Positions 45,701 to 51,700 of a stretch of 64,000 nt of DNA are shown piece by piece (positions within the stretch are counted from its first letter, which is position 1; every line of letters starts with the position of its first letter). Position numbers: made by a program. Source of the stretch: Escherichia coli (GTDB lineage: Bacteria; Pseudomonadota; Gammaproteobacteria; Enterobacterales; Enterobacteriaceae); the NCBI RefSeq assembly GCF_048403405.1, contig NZ_CP183129.1; one strand, 5' to 3'.

Positions 45701-48700
45701 CGGGCCTCCCTGTCATTGCTGCTGCGTGCCGGCTCGGTGGAGGAACTGAACAAAAAGCGCGTGGATCTGACGGCCACGCTGCTGAATGCCGGTCTGGAGC
45801 CGGTGAAGCCGGAATATGATGTGGCGCCGCTGAACGGGTATCTGCGTGCCCTGCCGATGTGTTTTGACCCGCAGACGGATAAAAAACACTGGTATACCCG
45901 GCTGACCTGGGTACAGCACCTGGCCGGATTACTGCCGGTGACCGGGCGCACCAGCGGCACCGGGCATCCCGGCTGGAGTTTCTTTAACCGGGGCGGCGGG
46001 GTGCTGACCTTTGATCCGCAGAATAAACAGGATCGTACCCAGAATGCGCATCTGCTGTTATTCGGTCCCACCGGGGCCGGTAAATCCGCCACCTTATGCG
46101 CACAGTTATCGCAGCTGATGGCGGTCCGCCGTCCGCGTCTGTTTATTGCGGAGGCCGGTAACTCCTTTGGTTTACTGGCGGACTATTACGCCAGTCTGGG
46201 GCTGAGTGTCAATAAGGTCAGTGTCAAGCCCGGCAGCGGGGTGCGTCTGCCGCTGTTTGCGGATGCGCATCAGCTGCTGATGATGGATGAACAGCGTCTG
46301 GCACTGAATGCGGATGAACTGCCAGAGACGGACAGTGAATCTGAGGATGATGACGGGCAGCGTGACATTCTGGGGGAAATGGAAATCTCCGCCCGCATGA
46401 TGATCACCGGCGGGGATGTGCGGGAAGAAGCGGAGCTGAAGCGGGCTGACCGGGCGATGATCCGCCGGGCGCTGATGGCGGGGGCCCGGGCGTCTTATGC
46501 CGCCGACCGGCAGATGCTGCCGGCGGATTTGCAGGAGGCGCTGTATGCCCTCTCCCGGGGGGAAGGTGAAGAGGAAGGGCGGGCATTAAATCCGCAGCGC
46601 CGGGCGAAAGCGGCCGAAATGGCGGAATCCCTGGGGATGTTTACCGAACCGGGCAGTTTTGAGCATGAGCTGTTTAATCTGCCGGGGGAGCTGTGGCCGG
46701 AGGCGGATGTGACCCTGATTGATTTGGGGCACCTGGCGCGGGAAGGGTATGAGGCCCAGATGGCGCTGACGATGGTGAGTCTTATCAACTCCATCAACAA
46801 TATTGCCGAGCGGGATCAGTACCGGGCCCGGGACATTAATTTTGTGGTGGATGAGGCGCATATCGTGACGGTCAACCCGCTGTTATCCCCCTATGTGACC
46901 AAAGTGGTGAAAATGTGGCGGAAACTGGGGGCCTGGCTGTGGCTGGCGACCCAGAACCTCGATGACTATCCGGACTGTGCCGAGAAAATGCTCAATATGG
47001 CGGAGTGGTGGGTGTGTCTGACGATGCCGCAGAAAGAGGTGGAGGCAATCGCCCGCTTTAAGACGCTCAGTGAGGAGCAGAAACAGGTGCTGCTGTCCGC
47101 AGCCAAACTCTCCGGCTGTTACACGGAAGGGGTGGTGCTGGCGCGGAAAGTGGAGGCGCTGTTCCGGGTGGTACAGCCGAGCTTATATCTGGCGCTGGGG
47201 ATGACGGAAAAAGAGGAGAAGCAGCAACGGCGGGTGCTGATGGAGCAATACGGATGCAGTGAGCTGGAAGCGGCGTTCAGGGTGGCAGATGAACTTGACC
47301 GGAAACGGGGGTTACCGCCCCGGGTGCCGGGATGATGAAACGGGTGGAGCAGGGAGTGGGTAAACCGTGTTGCAGCACGGCTTACCCGGCCGCTTCATTG
47401 GGTATGTTAAAAAGAGGAAACATGACGTCATGAAAACGACGGGAGTTAAAGTAACGCTTTTGTCGCTGGTTGTCAGTTATTCCTGCGCTTTACAGGCCAA
47501 AAACGTGTCACTGGGGGACACGGCCGTGGCCACGGGGCAGCACAGTACGGCTGTCGGTGAGGGCAGTATGGCGCTGGGGAACAATATGACGGCGGAACAG
47601 GCGCAGGCGGCGATGAAAGCCCAGAATGCCCTGTTGCAGAACAGGGCGCAGGCGCATGAGCAGTACATGCAGACGCAGGCCCTGTTTGACAGTAAATCGC
47701 TGGCGAACAGCAATATTCTGGAGCGTCAGGAAGCGATGAAACCGTTGTTGCAGCAACAGGAGACCCTGGCGGGTCAGCGTACCGCGCAACAGCAGCAGGT
47801 GACACAGGCACAGCAGGTCGCTGACCGGATGGCACAGATTTATGAACGCAATCTGGGGGCGGTTTCACAGATTGTGGATGAGAATTTTGTGGCGTTGTGG
47901 CAGCAGGGGCAGGCTGACCGTCTGGCTCAGGAAGTGAAAAAACGGGTTGAGCAGGATACGTCGGTCAGTAATGACACGCAGTTTTATGTCAGTTATGTTA
48001 ATGCCTATATTGAAGCGAAAACCAGAAGTGCTCTGGTTAATGAAACCATCAAAGAGAAAACCGGTTCTCAGATTACGACCAACTATCAGGGTGTGGCCCT
48101 GTCCCCGGTACTGAGTGCCGGCCACAGTGATAAAGCGATGCTGTGGTCGGATGCGGTCACGGACAGCGAGCAGAAGAAACAATTATCCCGTTTACACCTG
48201 AATACCGCGGCCCTGAAGGGCGTTGCCGGTTATCAGGAAGAGCTGGCCAAAATCGCCCTGATCACCTCTGCGGACGGGAAAAAGAATCTGTATCAGGCTT
48301 ATCAGAAAAATGCCCGGCAGCAAATTGAGCAGGGGCTCACCGGGGTGACAGAGGCCGGGAAGCAGATCCTGTCAGAGCTGTATCTGGATAACATCGATGA
48401 AGGCACCTTTAATCAGATGGTCAGCGGTATTTTCACCCGCTATGAGAATCAGCTGAACTACCTGATCCAGCTGGATAAGGTCAACAGTTTATCGCCGGAC
48501 AGCCCGGATTATGCCAAAGAGTTACAGCAACTGCTGGTACTGGAAAGCCGTCCCCGGGATAACACCGTCGGGCTGAATACCAACCCGGAGGCGCTGAAAC
48601 AAAAAGTGGATCAGTACCTTCAGGACAATGCGCTCAGTCACACACAGGCCATGTCGTCACAGGCCACACAGCTGAAACAGCAGTTATCGGCGGAAAAAGC

Positions 48701-51700
48701 CGTCACCGATCAGGCACTGAAGCAGGCAGAAACGCAACTCTCCCGGCTGGAAAAGGATCTCTCCGCGCTGGATACAAAGTTGTCTGATTTGCGTCCGACG
48801 CAATCCGAGCTGGAAAACATCCGGGATCTGGAGAAGGTGAAAGCCGAACTGGCGCAGAAACAGGCGGAATATCAGGCGGCGGATAAAGCCCTGAATGAGG
48901 CGCAGAGTACGCTGAGTCAGGGTAAACAGGCTGTTGCGGTCGGGGATAAGAGTCTGGCGCTGGGCGAAAAATCCGTGGCACTGAGTGTGGATGCCCGGGC
49001 GCTGGCGAAAAACAGTGTGGCACTGGGGGACGGCAGCCTGGCTGACCGGGATAACAGCGTGTCCGTCGGCCGTGAAGGTCAGGAACGTTTTCTGACGCAT
49101 GTGGCGGCCGGCATTGCAAAAACGGATGCGGTCAACAAAGGGCAACTGGATGAGGAGCGGGATGCGCGTATTGCCGGCGATAAGCAGACGCTGAAACAGG
49201 CCATGGACTACACCGATGTGAGCATTCAGTACAGTGAGGCGAAGATAAACAAGCGGATTACGGAAGAGCAGCAGGCCCGTATTGAGGGGGAGGAACAGAC
49301 CCTGGCGGCCGCAAACCGCTATACCGATGAGACGTTCGGGCAGGTGACCCACACGGTGCTGGACAATGCCCGGCAGTATACCGACCAGCGTTTCAGTCAG
49401 CTGGACAATAAAATCAGTCAGGTGGAGAAACGGGCCAATGCGGGGATTGCCGGGGTGACCGCAATATCTTCCATTCCGTATGTGAACAGTGAGCGTTTTT
49501 CGTTCGGGATGGCGATGGGGCATTACCGTGATGCACAGGCGATAGCCACCGGGGTGCAGTATAAGCCGACGGCCAATACCAATGTGCGCCTGAATGCGTC
49601 ATGGAATAACGGCGGCGATACCAGTATCGGCGCCGGGTTTGCGGTGGGCTGGTAACCGGTGAAAACCCGCCGGTCACCGGCGGGTTTTGATGCGCTTTTC
49701 TTCTCTCACCGTTCGTTTGTGAGGACTGACCGAATGAAAAAACGATTTTTATCTCTTTCCGGATTGCTGATGCTGTCGCTGTCATGCCTGCCGTTGACCG
49801 CCGGGGCGGCAGTGGTGCTGTATACCACGCAGGATGACGCTCTGCCGCAGACGGACATCCCGTTTGAGGTGGTGTATCTGGATGCGCCTGAACGCCTGCT
49901 GGATGAGGCCCTGCTTCAGCCGGGGACGGAACTGAGTGAAGCGGATGCCCTGCACATCACCGCCCTGTTACAAAGTCCGGCCTGGCAGGCCAGAGAAACG
50001 GCATTACGGCAGGCTTATCAGGGCGTGGTTCAGGCCTGGCAGCTGGGGGTGTCATCTCTGCCGGCGGTCGTCGTTGATGCGCAGTGGGTGGTTTACGGCA
50101 CCACCGATATTGCACAGGCGGTGACGCAGATACAGCAGTACCGGGAACAACAGGAAGGAGGAGGTCAACCATGACCCGACAATCACATCGCCGGCGTCTG
50201 GCGGGGGCTTTGTTACTCGGTTGTTCACTGGTGCCGGTGGCGGAAGCCAGTCTGAGTACCGCCACTCTGGTCGCTTCTGCGGCCTCACCGTCGTGTATCA
50301 GCTGGCGTATCAGCGGGATTTGCTACTGGCTGAAGTGTGGCTGGGGCGGCTGCCGTATCCGGACATCTGTCCGGGTGTCACATTTTATTCCGCAGGCGGT
50401 GGTCTCGGCCTACCATGCCCCGGGTGAAAACCCGTGGCGGGAAATGTCACTGGTCAGCGGGGCGGCCGGCGGGATTGAAAATGCCGTGACCGGCGTGCTG
50501 AGCGGGGTATCTGCCGGGGGCGGAAACAGTGAACAGAAGTTTGAGGCAAAACGTAAAACCGCCCTGCACTTTTTTTATGCGGATGCTATCGGTCATCCGG
50601 CAACCACCCTTATCGGCGGCAGTATTCCGGGGTATTCCTGTGACAGCGCAGCCACACCGCTGTTTCCTTATTACCTGAGCACGCTCGACAGTGTGCCGTG
50701 GCGGCTCGGTGTGCCGGAAATGGCGTATCCGGAAGCGATAATTCCCGGGAAACGGGAAATCGGGGGGCAGAGCCGGGGCAACATGTGGGGAAATCTCTAT
50801 CCGCGCAGCGGTTTTGTCAACCAGCAGGACGGGGATAAAGCGGCGGCTGTGGTGGCGCAGCGCGTGGCAGATATTATGACCCGCACCGGGCAGGCGCATA
50901 CCTATGTGCCCCTGAAAGGCAACCGCCGGGATGGCTATTGGCCGCCGGACGCGGTGACGGAGAATACCGGGACAAAAAACCATAAATGGCAGCGCCTGTC
51001 GCCGGGGCTGAAAAACAGCTGTGCGGTGTTTCCGGATGAGGGCGGAGCACAGGCACAGGACGGTAATTATGCCTGGGCATTGTGGCAGCCGTACAGCTGC
51101 TGCAAGCGCATGGGGCAAAAATTTCTGTACAGCACAACGTTTTAAGCAGGGATTTTAAGATGATGAAAGCAAAACGACACACGTTTTTTCCGCCGGCGCT
51201 GACACTGATGGTGTTATGCAGTGTACCGGCATTTTCTGTCCGGGCCGGGCTGGATTTTTCTGCCGGTGCGAATGATATCGGCTACGGCGCAAATGTTTCC
51301 GGCGCGGTCTCCGACAAACTGTACTACAACCTGGGCGGCGGCACGGTGTTATCCCAGCCGCCGGGGCGCAGTAATCTGCAACGTCTGGGGATGAGCATGG
51401 GCTGGAACAGTGATCTGATGTGCGGCAATTTTGATATCAAAACCACGGTGGGCAACCAGCTGAACGGGGTGACGGCCGGCTTTAAGAATCTGATGAGTGA
51501 GGTGATCCAGAATGCCACCGGGGCGGTGGCCAGTCTGCCGGCGATGGCTATCCAGCGGGCGAATCCCGGCCTGTATGAAATGCTGACCAACGGGGTGTTG
51601 CAGGCTAATGTGGCGTTTGATAAGGCGCAGCTGAACTGTCAGAACATGGCTAAACGGATGATGGACTTTTCAGAAAATAATCAGTGGACGCAGGCGGCGA

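What the first reader, a model, noticed from the sequence alone, without database searches (positions are those of the whole stretch)
47430..49655. Trimeric autotransporter adhesin encoded inside the conjugation module
A YadA-type adhesin (signal peptide, head-like repeats, long coiled-coil stalk, neck motif, C-terminal anchor ending GAGFAVGW) lies directly after the VirB4-like ATPase, co-oriented and with the same high GC as the surrounding T4SS genes. Adhesins are not a standard part of GI-type T4SS modules as I recall them. It could promote donor-recipient contact or aggregation during mating, or be a virulence cargo that rides the transfer operon.
Basis: partly seen in the sequence, partly recalled or inferred. 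Interest (0 to 1): 0.45.

Follow-up and report, generated by a model that had tools for sequence, protein, structure and literature searches.

The report
Known adhesin TaaP inside ICEPm1 transfer operon
The gene is real and is the already-characterised Proteus adhesin TaaP carried by the mobile element ICEPm1. What is new is that similar adhesin genes turn up repeatedly inside the DNA-transfer operons of unrelated plasmids and mobile elements, which makes a role in bacterial mating worth testing.

Summary
Window 47430-49655 (+) encodes a 741-aa trimeric autotransporter adhesin (TAA) with signal peptide, YadA head repeats, neck, stalk and anchor. It lies between the TraC/VirB4-like ATPase and the DUF1525/TIGR03757 gene of a GI-type (MPF_G) T4SS operon.

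It is already known. The DNA is 100% identical to genes annotated taaP, and the window is ICEPm1.

New here:
- **Variable slot.** In 80 related ICE loci the ATPase–TIGR03757 junction ranges from about 20-100 bp to over 9 kb, so TaaP is not a core T4SS part.
- **Old resident.** taaP has diverged in step with the flanking T4SS genes between ICEPm1 and ICEPm2 (dS 0.20, dN/dS 0.12) and has the same GC3.
- **Other adhesins in the same slot.** Sister ICEs carry an intimin-like inverse autotransporter (17 Xenorhabdus loci), classical autotransporters and a two-partner secretion pair, alongside defence and toxin cargo.
- **Homologues sit in other T4SS operons.** The only two distant homologues of TaaP's passenger lie at the end of VirB-type plasmid T4SS operons. 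Other TAAs sit inside MPF_T, MPF_I and MPF_F transfer regions.

A role as a mating or aggregation adhesin is plausible (about 0.35-0.4) but untested.

The parts
39128..54452 (+). Co-directional MPF_G T4SS gene array of ICEPm1, running from the RAQPRD gene to TraG_N, in which taaP is embedded
   Evidence: RefSeq annotation of the identical E. coli M24 locus (window = locus + 27429). Pfam confirms DUF3438, TrbI-like, TraC_F_IV, DUF1525, TraU and TraG_N.
44468..47335 (+). TraC/VirB4-like conjugative transfer ATPase, forming the left edge of the cargo slot
   Evidence: PF11130 TraC_F_IV, E 4e-87. Alignment A1 of homologues was used to fetch 80 related loci.
47336..47429 (+). Intergenic leader of taaP. 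The last ~70 nt are almost invariant between ICEPm1 and ICEPm2. It contains the palindromes CCGTG-TTGCAG-CACGG and CATGACGTCATG, the Shine-Dalgarno AAGAGGA, and a 3-codon mini-ORF whose stop overlaps the taaP ATG.
   Evidence: Sequence. Alignment A4 shows 2 changes in ~72 nt against dS ~0.2 in the flanking genes. No sigma-70-like site was found.
47430..47498 (+). TaaP signal peptide (aa 1-23)
   Evidence: Read directly from the translation.
47502..47588 (+). N-terminal YadA-head-like repeat (aa 25-53, NVSLGDTAVATGQHSTAVGEGSMALGNNM)
   Evidence: Aligns with the Pfam YadA_head stretch 45-69 of homologue P0143. Three YadA_head stretches were found in TaaP.
47589..48914 (+). Family-specific, mostly alpha-helical passenger (aa 54-495). 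Conserved motifs are F..W..G..D.LA...K..VE..TS..N...FY..YV and NYLIQL.KVN.LS. In-frame coiled-coil deletions (aa 106-155; aa 416-476) occur in natural variants.
   Evidence: No Pfam or PDB match. Only two distant homologues were found among 1.84 billion representatives. Alignments A2 and A5. The AF2 secondary structure is helical but of low confidence.
48915..49154 (+). Membrane-proximal YadA head repeats plus neck (aa 496-575)
   Evidence: Pfam YadA_head best stretch 526-547 and YadA_stalk 556-575. PDB matches to SadA 2yo0, BpaC 7o23 and YadA 1p9h.
49155..49487 (+). Coiled-coil stalk (aa 576-686)
   Evidence: PDB matches to YadA stalk fragments 3h7x and 3lt7 at aa 622-681. NCBIfam YadA_autotrans partial match 622-741.
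49488..49655 (+). YadA-like beta-barrel membrane anchor (aa 687-741, ending in W) plus stop codon
   Evidence: PF03895, E 9.5e-11. PDB matches to the YadA anchor 2lme and to Hia 2gr7/3emo.
49662..49688 (+). GC-rich hairpin AAAACCCGCCGG-TCA-CCGGCGGGTTTT placed 7 nt after the taaP stop. It is terminator-like, with a short interrupted U-tract.
   Evidence: RNA fold -23.9 kcal/mol, z -2.9. Conserved in ICEPm2 with only a loop change. Absent from ICEs with an empty slot.
49734..50174 (+). DUF1525/TIGR03757 ICE protein, forming the right edge of the cargo slot
   Evidence: PF07511, E 1.8e-24. Used as the right-hand anchor in the synteny measurement.
50171..51145 (+). TraU-like (TIGR03756) T4SS protein
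   Evidence: PF06834, E 2e-57.
52938..54452 (+). TraG_N-domain protein, related to the N-terminal region of F-type TraG
   Evidence: PF07916, E 1e-76.

Best explanation
**What it is.** This is taaP, the trimeric (type Vc) autotransporter adhesin of the integrative conjugative element ICEPm1.

**How the protein works (family knowledge).** The protein is exported by Sec. Three C-terminal anchors form one outer-membrane barrel, and the passengers emerge as a trimeric fibre built mainly of coiled coil.

**Published function.** TaaP makes cells autoagglutinate and binds extracellular matrix.

**Shown here.**
- It is not a core T4SS component. It is an accessory cassette, with its own conserved leader and a terminator-like hairpin, lodged in a cargo hotspot between the TraC/VirB4-like ATPase and the DUF1525 gene.
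- It is nevertheless an old, selected resident. It has diverged in step with the transfer genes across ICEPm1 and ICEPm2, and it occupies the same slot in a third variant element.

**Inferred.** taaP sits in the middle of a 15-kb co-directional T4SS array and has no recognisable promoter of its own. It is therefore probably transcribed with the transfer genes, so that transfer-competent cells become sticky. My committed mechanism is dual use. Clumping and surface attachment help the host colonise, and they also hold donors and recipients together in liquid or flow, raising ICE transfer.

**Probabilities.**
- Identity as TaaP of ICEPm1: about 0.97.
- Accessory cargo rather than core part: about 0.9.
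- Co-transcription with the T4SS: about 0.6.
- A measurable boost to conjugation: about 0.35-0.4.
For: **Identity.**
- The gene is 100% identical at the DNA level to genes annotated 'trimeric autotransporter adhesin TaaP' (WP_004239700.1) in E. coli chromosomes.
- The locus in E. coli M24 is an ICE at tRNA-Phe with a complete GI-type T4SS.
- P. mirabilis ATCC 29906 carries a 99.9% identical copy in the same place.
- The literature names TaaP as ICEPm1 cargo (PMC12016157) and as an autoaggregating adhesin with affinity for extracellular-matrix proteins (PMC11599158, citing Alamuri 2010).

**Family membership.**

**Hotspot.**
- The distance from the ATPase stop to the TIGR03757 start ranges from 62 bp to more than 9.6 kb across 80 loci.
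- The slot contents fall into about 100 unrelated gene clusters.
- These include restriction-modification systems, a reverse transcriptase, AAA_13 ATPases, a methylase, Rhs/VgrG toxins and metabolic genes.

**Old resident.**
- dS is 0.196 and dN/dS 0.12 for taaP. The ATPase gives 0.197 and 0.07, and TIGR03757 gives 0.215 and 0.15.
- GC3 is 0.66, within the module's range of 0.55-0.74.
- The same slot is occupied in a third variant element.

**Cassette features.**

**Support for a mating role.**
- TaaP aligns end to end with P0143 (30% identity, 2e-89) and over most of its length with P0142, whose C-terminus is cut at the contig end (28%, 4e-47). These are its only distant passenger homologues.
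- Both are encoded directly after VirD4/TrbM in VirB-type T4SS operons.
- Other TAAs lie inside transfer regions of several plasmid types:
  - IncX4/MPF_T;
  - other MPF_T plasmids, including P. aeruginosa KPC plasmids;
  - IncI-gamma/K1 MPF_I;
  - IncF MPF_F, between traT and traD.
- Sister ICEs carry other type V surface proteins in the same slot.
- Synthetic surface adhesins raise RP4 conjugation in liquid by about 1.5 log in the intimin-nanobody experiment quoted (PMC9825185).
- Plasmid-encoded Big-domain proteins facilitate IncHI and IncA/C conjugation (PMC8730810).
Against: - The slot is a general cargo site, so an adhesin there may be incidental.
- ICEs with an empty slot (Photorhabdus, Bisgaardia) show that the T4SS does not need an adhesin.
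- The strong hairpin immediately after taaP suggests a self-contained cassette that could even impede downstream T4SS genes.
- The nearly invariant 70-nt leader may hide a promoter of its own or a regulator site that my simple scan cannot see.
- From memory of Alamuri 2010 (paper not held), TaaP has a host-directed phenotype in extracellular-matrix binding and bladder colonisation. That alone could explain its retention.
- If autoagglutination is homotypic, it would glue donors to donors, not to ICE-free recipients.
- No experiment on taaP and ICEPm1 transfer was found. The primary ICEPm1 and TaaP papers could not be read.
Confidence: 0.8

Rival explanations
1. TaaP is purely host-directed or colonisation cargo. 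It is a virulence adhesin and autoagglutinin that happens to sit in a permissive insertion hotspot of the transfer operon and has no effect on conjugation. Its retention reflects benefit to the bacterial host in the urinary tract and the difficulty of excising a gene from the middle of an essential operon.
For: - The slot holds many kinds of unrelated cargo.
- Empty slots exist.
- taaP has its own conserved leader and a terminator-like hairpin.
- The published phenotypes are adhesion and aggregation.
- One plasmid TAA (pRHB07-C17_2) sits among IS elements and AIDA genes, not transfer genes.
Against: - This reading does not explain why both distant homologues of the distinctive passenger lie in T4SS operons of an unrelated class.
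- It does not explain why TAAs recur inside MPF_T, MPF_I and MPF_F transfer regions.
- Per PMC11278526, ICEPm1, ICEPm2 and ICEPm3 exchanged their accessory modules while keeping the core modules. taaP stayed in its slot in ICEPm1, in ICEPm2 and in a third variant element.
Confidence: 0.45
2. TaaP protects the donor envelope rather than promoting contact. Like TraT, next to which a TAA sits in one IncF plasmid, it would provide serum or complement resistance, or surface exclusion that limits redundant or lethal mating between ICE-bearing cells.
For: - Many TAAs confer serum resistance (family knowledge; reviews PMC3417366 and PMC3404963).
- In pTMTA97341 the TAA lies directly after traT.
- In MPF_T plasmids the TAA lies next to TrbM/KikA, and in one case in the same operon as an EexN-type exclusion gene.
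Against: - The reported TaaP phenotype is autoagglutination, the opposite of exclusion.
- There is no sequence similarity to TraT or Eex proteins.
- The long fibre architecture is typical of adhesins.
Confidence: 0.07
3. TaaP is a structural or essential component of the MPF_G mating apparatus, for example a pilus-associated adhesin without which the T4SS does not work.
For: It is embedded between essential T4SS genes, co-oriented with them and co-evolving with them.
Against: - It was found in only 1 of the 80 related genome loci, plus the ICEPm-type loci fetched separately (L001, L082, L083-L085).
- The slot is empty or holds unrelated genes in the rest.
- A type Vc protein secretes itself and needs no T4SS.
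Confidence: 0.03

Closest known systems
TaaP (PMI2575) of Proteus mirabilis ICEPm1 (Alamuri et al. 2010, Infect Immun 78:4882; Flannery et al. 2009 and 2011)
   Same: - The gene matches RefSeq entries named TaaP at 100% DNA identity.
- P. mirabilis ATCC 29906 carries a 99.9% identical copy.
- The ICE context is the same: tRNA-Phe integration, nrp-type siderophore cluster and GI-type T4SS.
   Different: Nothing in the sequence differs. What I add is context: the hotspot, the co-divergence with the backbone, and homologues in plasmid T4SS operons. The primary papers were not readable here. The PMI2575 = TaaP equation and the infection phenotypes are therefore from memory.
YadA / SadA / BpaC / Hia-type trimeric autotransporter adhesins (type Vc secretion)
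   Same: Signal peptide, head repeats, DAVNxxQL neck, coiled-coil stalk, and a 4-strand-per-monomer anchor ending in an aromatic residue.
   Different: The N-terminal 470 residues of the passenger have no Pfam or PDB relative and only two distant homologues in 1.84 billion representatives. NCBIfam full-length YadA, BimA, EmaA and Ata models are far below cutoff.
Dedicated conjugation adhesins and mating-pair stabilisers. These include F-type TraN/TraG, IncI thin-pilus PilV and pKM101 TraC/Pep (from memory). They also include the IncHI RSP/RSP2 and IncA/C Big-domain proteins (PMC6764697, PMC8730810).
   Same: All are surface proteins encoded within transfer regions. For the Big proteins, the effect is to facilitate cell-to-cell contact and plasmid transfer.
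   Different: - They share no homology with TaaP.
- The RSP proteins use the conjugative export machinery and bind pili and flagella. TaaP is a self-exporting type V protein.
- A conjugation phenotype for TaaP has not been tested.
Synthetic intimin-nanobody 'mating assemblers' (PMC9825185)
   Same: An outer-membrane type V scaffold displayed on donors drives aggregation and raises conjugation in liquid. This is the mechanism I infer for natural T4SS-embedded adhesins, including the intimin-like proteins in the Xenorhabdus ICE slot.
   Different: It is an engineered, heterotypic antigen-nanobody pair. The natural ligand of TaaP on other bacteria is unknown.
Saa, the autoagglutinating TAA of STEC megaplasmids
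   Same: A plasmid-borne autoagglutinating TAA with a related C-terminal part (38.6% identity to P0143 over its aa 473-761).
   Different: The passenger is different. I did not examine whether saa lies near transfer genes.

Membership tests
Trimeric autotransporter adhesin (type Vc secretion) | C-terminal YadA-like membrane anchor domain ending in an aromatic residue | tested here: met
   PF03895 scores 42 bits against a cutoff of 22.7 at aa 687-741. The protein ends ...GAGFAVGW. PDB matches to the YadA anchor 2lme and to Hia 2gr7/3emo.
Trimeric autotransporter adhesin (type Vc secretion) | N-terminal Sec signal peptide | tested here: met
   MKTTGVKVTLLSLVVSYSCALQA|K, read directly. No dedicated predictor was available.
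Trimeric autotransporter adhesin (type Vc secretion) | Passenger built from head repeats, neck and coiled-coil stalk | tested here: met
   YadA_head scores 53 bits (3 stretches). The YadA_stalk/neck match scores 28.8 bits against a cutoff of 28.4. Matches to SadA, BpaC and YadA head-neck structures.
Trimeric autotransporter adhesin (type Vc secretion) | Obligate homotrimer forming one 12-stranded barrel | not testable with these tools
   The monomer AF2 model was poor (pLDDT 45). No multimer prediction is available.
TaaP of ICEPm1 | Sequence identity to the named protein | tested here: met
   100% DNA identity to RefSeq taaP genes (WP_004239700.1).
TaaP of ICEPm1 | Location in an ICEPm1-type element integrated at tRNA-Phe | tested here: met
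   The identical locus in E. coli M24 ends with a TraI-domain protein, an integrase and tRNA-Phe. The first 25 kb of the window are 100% identical to the same elements. The window itself lies wholly inside the ICE, so its own att sites are not visible.
TaaP of ICEPm1 | Autoagglutination and extracellular-matrix binding | not testable with these tools
   Reported in the literature (citing Alamuri 2010).
Core component of the GI-type (MPF_G) T4SS | Conserved presence and position across the T4SS family | tested here: not met
   TaaP was found in only 1 of the 80 related genome loci, plus the ICEPm-type loci fetched separately. The slot is empty in Photorhabdus and in a Pasteurellaceae ICE, and variable elsewhere.
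Conjugation-associated adhesin (mating-pair formation or stabilisation) | Encoded within and co-oriented with the transfer operon | tested here: met
   No + strand sigma-70-like site or scan-detected terminator lies between the ATPase and taaP.
Conjugation-associated adhesin (mating-pair formation or stabilisation) | Homologues recurrently linked to conjugative T4SS genes in independent elements | tested here: met
   P0142 and P0143 lie in VirB-type operons. Unrelated TAAs lie in MPF_T, MPF_I and MPF_F transfer regions. There is one counter-example. This was a small hand-picked sample, not a census.
Conjugation-associated adhesin (mating-pair formation or stabilisation) | Loss reduces transfer frequency or donor-recipient aggregation | not testable with these tools
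   No published test was found in the searchable library.

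The most novel reading that the evidence does not exclude
Type V surface adhesins are a recurrent accessory class of conjugation factor that has gone unrecognised. The clearest case is a small TaaP family of trimeric autotransporters with a unique helical passenger.

Such adhesins have been recruited repeatedly into the transfer operons of all four proteobacterial mating-pair-formation classes:
- MPF_G ICEs such as ICEPm1 and the Xenorhabdus ICEs;
- MPF_T plasmids of IncX type and P. aeruginosa KPC plasmids;
- MPF_I IncI-gamma/K1 plasmids;
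- MPF_F IncF plasmids.

They would be co-expressed with the T4SS to glue donors to recipients, or to form mating aggregates, in liquid or under flow. This would be the same job as TraN, PilV or the IncHI Big proteins, done by a self-exporting fibre.

In ICEPm1, TaaP may stand in for the type IVb pilus, of which only pilL2 remains.
Probability: 0.35. Interest if true: 0.7.

Novelty: already known. Interest (0 to 1): 0.4.

Why it matters
As a gene call, the finding adds nothing. TaaP and ICEPm1 were described in 2009-2011.

Its value is as a lead. ICEPm1 is reported to reach 100% frequency in urinary P. mirabilis isolates and has close copies in Providencia, Morganella, Escherichia and Klebsiella. 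The plasmid families in which I found operon-embedded TAAs include an IncX4 plasmid and KPC-carrying plasmids of P. aeruginosa and E. coli.

If these adhesins raise transfer in liquid or flowing environments such as urine, catheters or the gut lumen, three things follow:
- They would explain part of the host range and efficiency of these elements.
- They would add a fourth kind of mating-contact device alongside TraN, PilV and the Big proteins.
- They would offer a surface-exposed target for blocking the spread of resistance and virulence genes.

The hypothesis can be tested directly with a single in-frame deletion and paired liquid and filter matings.

Tried and rejected
- **Primary papers.** Alamuri 2010 and Flannery 2009 and 2011 are not held. 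Two reviews are also not held. Phenotype details therefore rest on secondary citations and memory.
- **Structure.** The AlphaFold2 model of full-length TaaP from a shallow 6-sequence alignment was poor (mean pLDDT 45, pTM 0.29). I ran no fold search, because the matches would be meaningless.
- **More family members.** A profile search with the three-lineage passenger alignment A5 found nothing beyond the ICEPm cluster. The first word-indexed search found only generic TAAs sharing the C-terminus.
- **Promoter and terminator scan.** No promoter was found in the taaP leader, and the scan missed the obvious hairpin after taaP because the A/U pairs extend the stem into the U-tract. I found the hairpin by eye and folded it.
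- **Hairpins elsewhere.** I looked for comparable hairpins after other operon-embedded adhesin genes. None was convincing.
- **Plasmid search.** taaP DNA against the plasmid collection gave no match.
- **Literature.** Searches for any link between TAAs or YadA-like proteins and conjugation returned nothing relevant. 'YadA' also matches the surname Yadav.
- **Core T4SS component.** Considered and rejected on the synteny data.
- **Recent foreign insertion.** Considered and rejected on GC3 and dS.
- **Coordinate error.** My ORF coordinates were 1 too low, which caused the error. They were corrected from then on.
- **Metagenome scan.** Not run. An exhaustive search of 1.84 billion representatives had already found only two relatives.

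Full report
**1.

The window has an ORF on the + strand ending at 49655. The annotated start is the ATG at 47430, preceded by AAGAGGA, which gives 741 aa.

The N-terminus, MKTTGVKVTLLSLVVSYSCALQA|KNVS, reads as a Sec signal peptide. Pfam finds YadA_head, the YadA_stalk/neck (TDAVNKGQL) and YadA_anchor, all above their curated cutoffs. The protein ends GAGFAVGW.

Solved TAA structures (SadA, BpaC, YadA head, stalk and anchor, Hia) match only residues 483-741.

Upstream is a 955-aa TraC_F_IV (VirB4-like) ATPase. Downstream are DUF1525/TIGR03757, a TraU-like gene and a TraG_N gene, all co-oriented. taaP has GC 0.553 and GC3 0.66, matching the T4SS module (GC3 0.55-0.74).

**2. The gene is already known**

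The DNA is 100% identical to genes annotated 'taaP: trimeric autotransporter adhesin TaaP' in E. coli chromosomes, and 94% identical to a copy in mouse E. coli strains. It has no plasmid match.

In E. coli M24 the locus is an ICE at tRNA-Phe with a full GI-type T4SS, a TraI-domain protein and an integrase. The first 25 kb of the window are 100% identical to the same elements. They carry a degenerate IS-rich region and an NRPS/PKS siderophore cluster. P. mirabilis ATCC 29906 has a 99.9% identical TaaP in the same place.

This is ICEPm1:
- PMC12016157 lists TaaP among its cargo.
- PMC11278526 describes ICEPm1, ICEPm2 and ICEPm3 as sharing core modules while differing in accessory modules. It identifies the mouse E. 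coli elements as ICEPm2.
- PMC11599158 summarises Alamuri et al. [quoted passage not shown]

The primary papers were not available.

**3. TaaP is not a core T4SS part, and the slot is a cargo hotspot**

I aligned ATPase homologues and fetched 80 related loci from 100,044 species genomes. I then measured the distance from the ATPase stop to the TIGR03757 start.

| Loci | Distance or arrangement |
|---|---|
| Six Photorhabdus ICEs | 62-102 bp by tblastn (about 20 bp between the ORFs in L021) |
| Bisgaardia (Pasteurellaceae) ICE | The next gene overlaps the ATPase stop |
| Other loci | 0.65 kb to more than 9.6 kb |

The slot contents fall into about 100 unrelated clusters. They include:
- type I restriction-modification systems, a C5 methylase, a reverse transcriptase and AAA_13 ATPases;
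- a YobI ATPase, subtilase/AAA pairs and a deaminase;
- Rhs-PAAR-AHH and VgrG toxins and T6SS parts;
- a TonB receptor and metabolic genes.

A roughly 134-aa ORF follows the ATPase in at least 35 loci but is absent from ICEPm1. In the 680-aa TaaP variant element, a partial duplicate of the ATPase 3' end lies upstream of taaP. This looks like a recombination scar at the left edge of the slot.

**4. TaaP is nonetheless an old, selected resident**

Between ICEPm1 and ICEPm2, taaP has diverged as much as its T4SS neighbours.

| Gene | dS | dN/dS |
|---|---|---|
| taaP | 0.196 | 0.12 |
| ATPase | 0.197 | 0.07 |
| TIGR03757 | 0.215 | 0.15 |

A third variant occupies the same slot in an element with different accessory genes, including a phenazine cluster. 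Length variants (741, 691 and 680 aa) arise from clean in-frame deletions of coiled-coil segments.

The cassette has two conserved flanking features:
- **Leader.** The 70 nt before the ATG are almost invariant between ICEPm1 and ICEPm2, with 2 changes.
- **Hairpin.** A -23.9 kcal/mol GC-rich hairpin with a short U-tract sits 7 nt after the stop, and it is conserved.

No sigma-70-like promoter was detected. That is weak evidence only.

**5. Adhesins recur in this slot and in other transfer operons**

*Other type V secretion classes in the same slot of sister ICEs*
- **Type Ve.** A ~1080-aa intimin/invasin-like inverse autotransporter (IAT_beta, five Big_1 domains, Invasin_D3, weak Intimin_C) is present in 17 Xenorhabdus loci.
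  - It is always on the + strand.
  - Ten full-length copies have no internal stops; one further copy (L058) is split into two ORFs.
  - It diverges faster (60-94% identity) than the ATPase (92-99%).
- **Type Va.** Classical autotransporters occur in two loci.
- **Type Vb.** A ShlB plus TPS/haemagglutinin pair lies downstream of the ATPase in Serratia. A CdiA-like protein on the opposite strand occurs in one Xenorhabdus locus.

*Homologues of TaaP's own passenger*

An exhaustive HMMER search with TaaP residues 50-500 against 1.84 billion representatives found only two proteins outside its own cluster. TaaP aligns end to end with P0143 (30% identity, 2e-89). It aligns over most of its length with P0142, whose C-terminus is cut at the contig end (28%, 4e-47). 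Passenger motifs are conserved.

Both are encoded immediately after VirB8-9-10-11, VirD4 and a small gene (a weak TrbM match in L086) in VirB-type operons:
- One sits on a contig whose T4SS is 96% identical to Serratia plasmid pE36_3.
- The other sits on an IncX-like backbone with TopB and Hha.

In pE36_3 itself that position holds a PcfJ-like gene instead.

*Unrelated TAAs inside transfer regions of other plasmids*

| Plasmid | Type | Arrangement |
|---|---|---|
| pU90-1 | IncX4, MPF_T | VirD4 – TrbM – TAA … TopB |
| pO177B2 | no replicon or MPF type assigned (MOBP); VirB-type genes | VirB11 – VirD4 – Cag12-like – hyp – TAA |
| pQZPH21-KPC (P. aeruginosa) | VirB-type genes (MOB-suite: IncU replicon, no MPF assigned) | VirD4 – hyp – TAA – TrbM – PcfJ – TopB |
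| pE-T70-KPC-2 | MPF_T | Unannotated TAA match just upstream of virB1 |
| pRHB15-C06_2 | IncI-gamma/K1, MPF_I | DUF2913 – TAA – TraP … |
| pTMTA97341 (Phytobacter) | IncF, MPF_F | TraG – hyp – TraT – TAA – hyp – TraD – relaxase |
| paNv_CAN12 (Arsenophonus) | not typed | TAA at the start of the record, followed by Topo III, Hha and H-NS; upstream side not seen |
| pRHB07-C17_2 | IncF | TAA among IS and AIDA genes (counter-example) |

About 84 Pseudomonas plasmid records also hit the pU90-1 TAA query.

This is a small hand-picked sample, not a census, and several of the plasmids are related to one another.

**6. Interpretation**

*Shown*
- The gene is TaaP.
- It is accessory cargo in a hotspot inside the T4SS operon.
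- It has been kept there under purifying selection.
- Relatives and analogues are repeatedly linked to conjugative T4SS genes.

*Known from others*
- TaaP autoagglutinates and binds matrix proteins.
- Surface adhesins can raise conjugation in liquid (PMC9825185).
- Plasmid-encoded Big proteins facilitate IncHI and IncA/C conjugation (PMC8730810).

*Inferred*
- taaP is co-transcribed with the T4SS genes.
- It has a dual role in colonisation and in bringing mating partners together.
- ICEPm1 retains only pilL2 of the type IVb pilus cluster. From memory (Carter et al. 2010), PAPI-1 needs that pilus for transfer, so TaaP could compensate for its loss.

*Against*
- The slot accepts any cargo, and empty slots work.
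- The hairpin and conserved leader suggest an autonomous cassette.
- Homotypic agglutination would not bind ICE-free recipients.
- A host-directed benefit alone could explain retention.

I put the conjugation-enhancing role at about 0.35-0.4, and the purely host-directed reading at about 0.45.

**7. Verdict**

The finding is confirmed but already known, so novelty is nil for the gene itself. Interest is moderate only because the follow-up exposed a recurrent link between type V adhesins and transfer operons. That link appears undescribed in the searchable literature, and a simple experiment can test it.

Noticed in passing
window 5213-30937: An NRPS/type I PKS siderophore-type cluster. It includes a PPTase, two ABC transporters, a thioesterase, an oxidoreductase, a 9.2-kb PKS, a 6.1-kb NRPS, a methyltransferase, an MFS transporter and a TonB-dependent receptor. 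GC is 30-40%, well below the 55-61% of the T4SS module. This is the iron-acquisition module of ICEPm1.
   Followed up: no
window 1-4000: A degenerate region: a frameshifted ArdC gene, ClbS and integrase fragments, an intact IS110 transposase, a decayed IS3, a DUF2857 fragment and an AlpA regulator.
   Followed up: no
window 31704-32366: pilL2 (PFGI-1-class ICE type IV pilus protein) stands alone. The following genes are a hypothetical, TIGR03759, an SLT transglycosylase and traD. No pilN-pilV genes are present, so the type IVb pilus cluster of related ICEs appears to be missing.
   Followed up: partly
window 47360-47432: The taaP leader contains the inverted repeat CCGTG-TTGCAG-CACGG and the perfect palindrome CATGACGTCATG. 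The latter creates a 3-codon mini-ORF (ATG ACG TCA TGA) whose stop overlaps the taaP ATG. The stretch is nearly invariant between ICEPm1 and ICEPm2, which suggests regulation.
   Followed up: partly
L083 9635-9900: In the ICE variant with the 680-aa TaaP, about 236 bp upstream of taaP duplicate the 3' end of the ATPase gene. This looks like a recombination scar at the left edge of the cargo slot.
   Followed up: partly
L045 12831-16076 (also L028, L031, L034, L035, L036, L048, L064, L072, L075 and others): Xenorhabdus ICEs carry an intact ~1080-aa intimin/invasin-like inverse autotransporter in the slot that taaP occupies. It evolves much faster (60-94% identity) than the adjacent ATPase (92-99%).
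   Followed up: partly
L011 14277-22828; L064 13152-18971 (-); L027 14308-18714 (-); L030 9121-18231: Contact-dependent weapons occupy the same ICE slot. They include a ShlB plus TPS/haemagglutinin pair, a CdiA-like protein with an endonuclease tip, Rhs-PAAR-AHH toxins with VgrG, and T6SS parts (TssF, DUF2169, Ntox15).
   Followed up: partly
window 38373-38981 (-) and L095 1314-2000: A DUF2913 gene sits on the opposite strand inside the ICEPm1 T4SS module. A DUF2913 gene also lies immediately upstream of the YadA-like gene in the IncI-gamma/K1 plasmid pRHB15-C06_2. This may be coincidence or a shared regulator.
   Followed up: no
L089 12001-16560 continuing into L090 1-1362 (Acinetobacter sp. 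TGL-Y2 plasmid NZ_CP015111.1): A very large TAA gene runs across the origin of the circular record and is unannotated in the table. Its N-terminal part is 24% identical to the P0143 passenger over about 480 aa. It lies about 5 kb from two traN genes.
   Followed up: partly
L040 12752-13153 and at least 35 other loci: A conserved ~134-aa ORF with no Pfam match directly follows the ATPase in most related ICEs. It is absent from ICEPm1 and from the Xenorhabdus intimin-type loci. Its function is unknown.
   Followed up: partly
L082 21636-26225: ICEPm2 in mouse E. coli carries a ShlB/FhaC plus haemagglutinin-repeat (CDI) pair about 2.5 kb downstream of the TraG_N gene. This is a second type V system on the same element as TaaP.
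   Followed up: no
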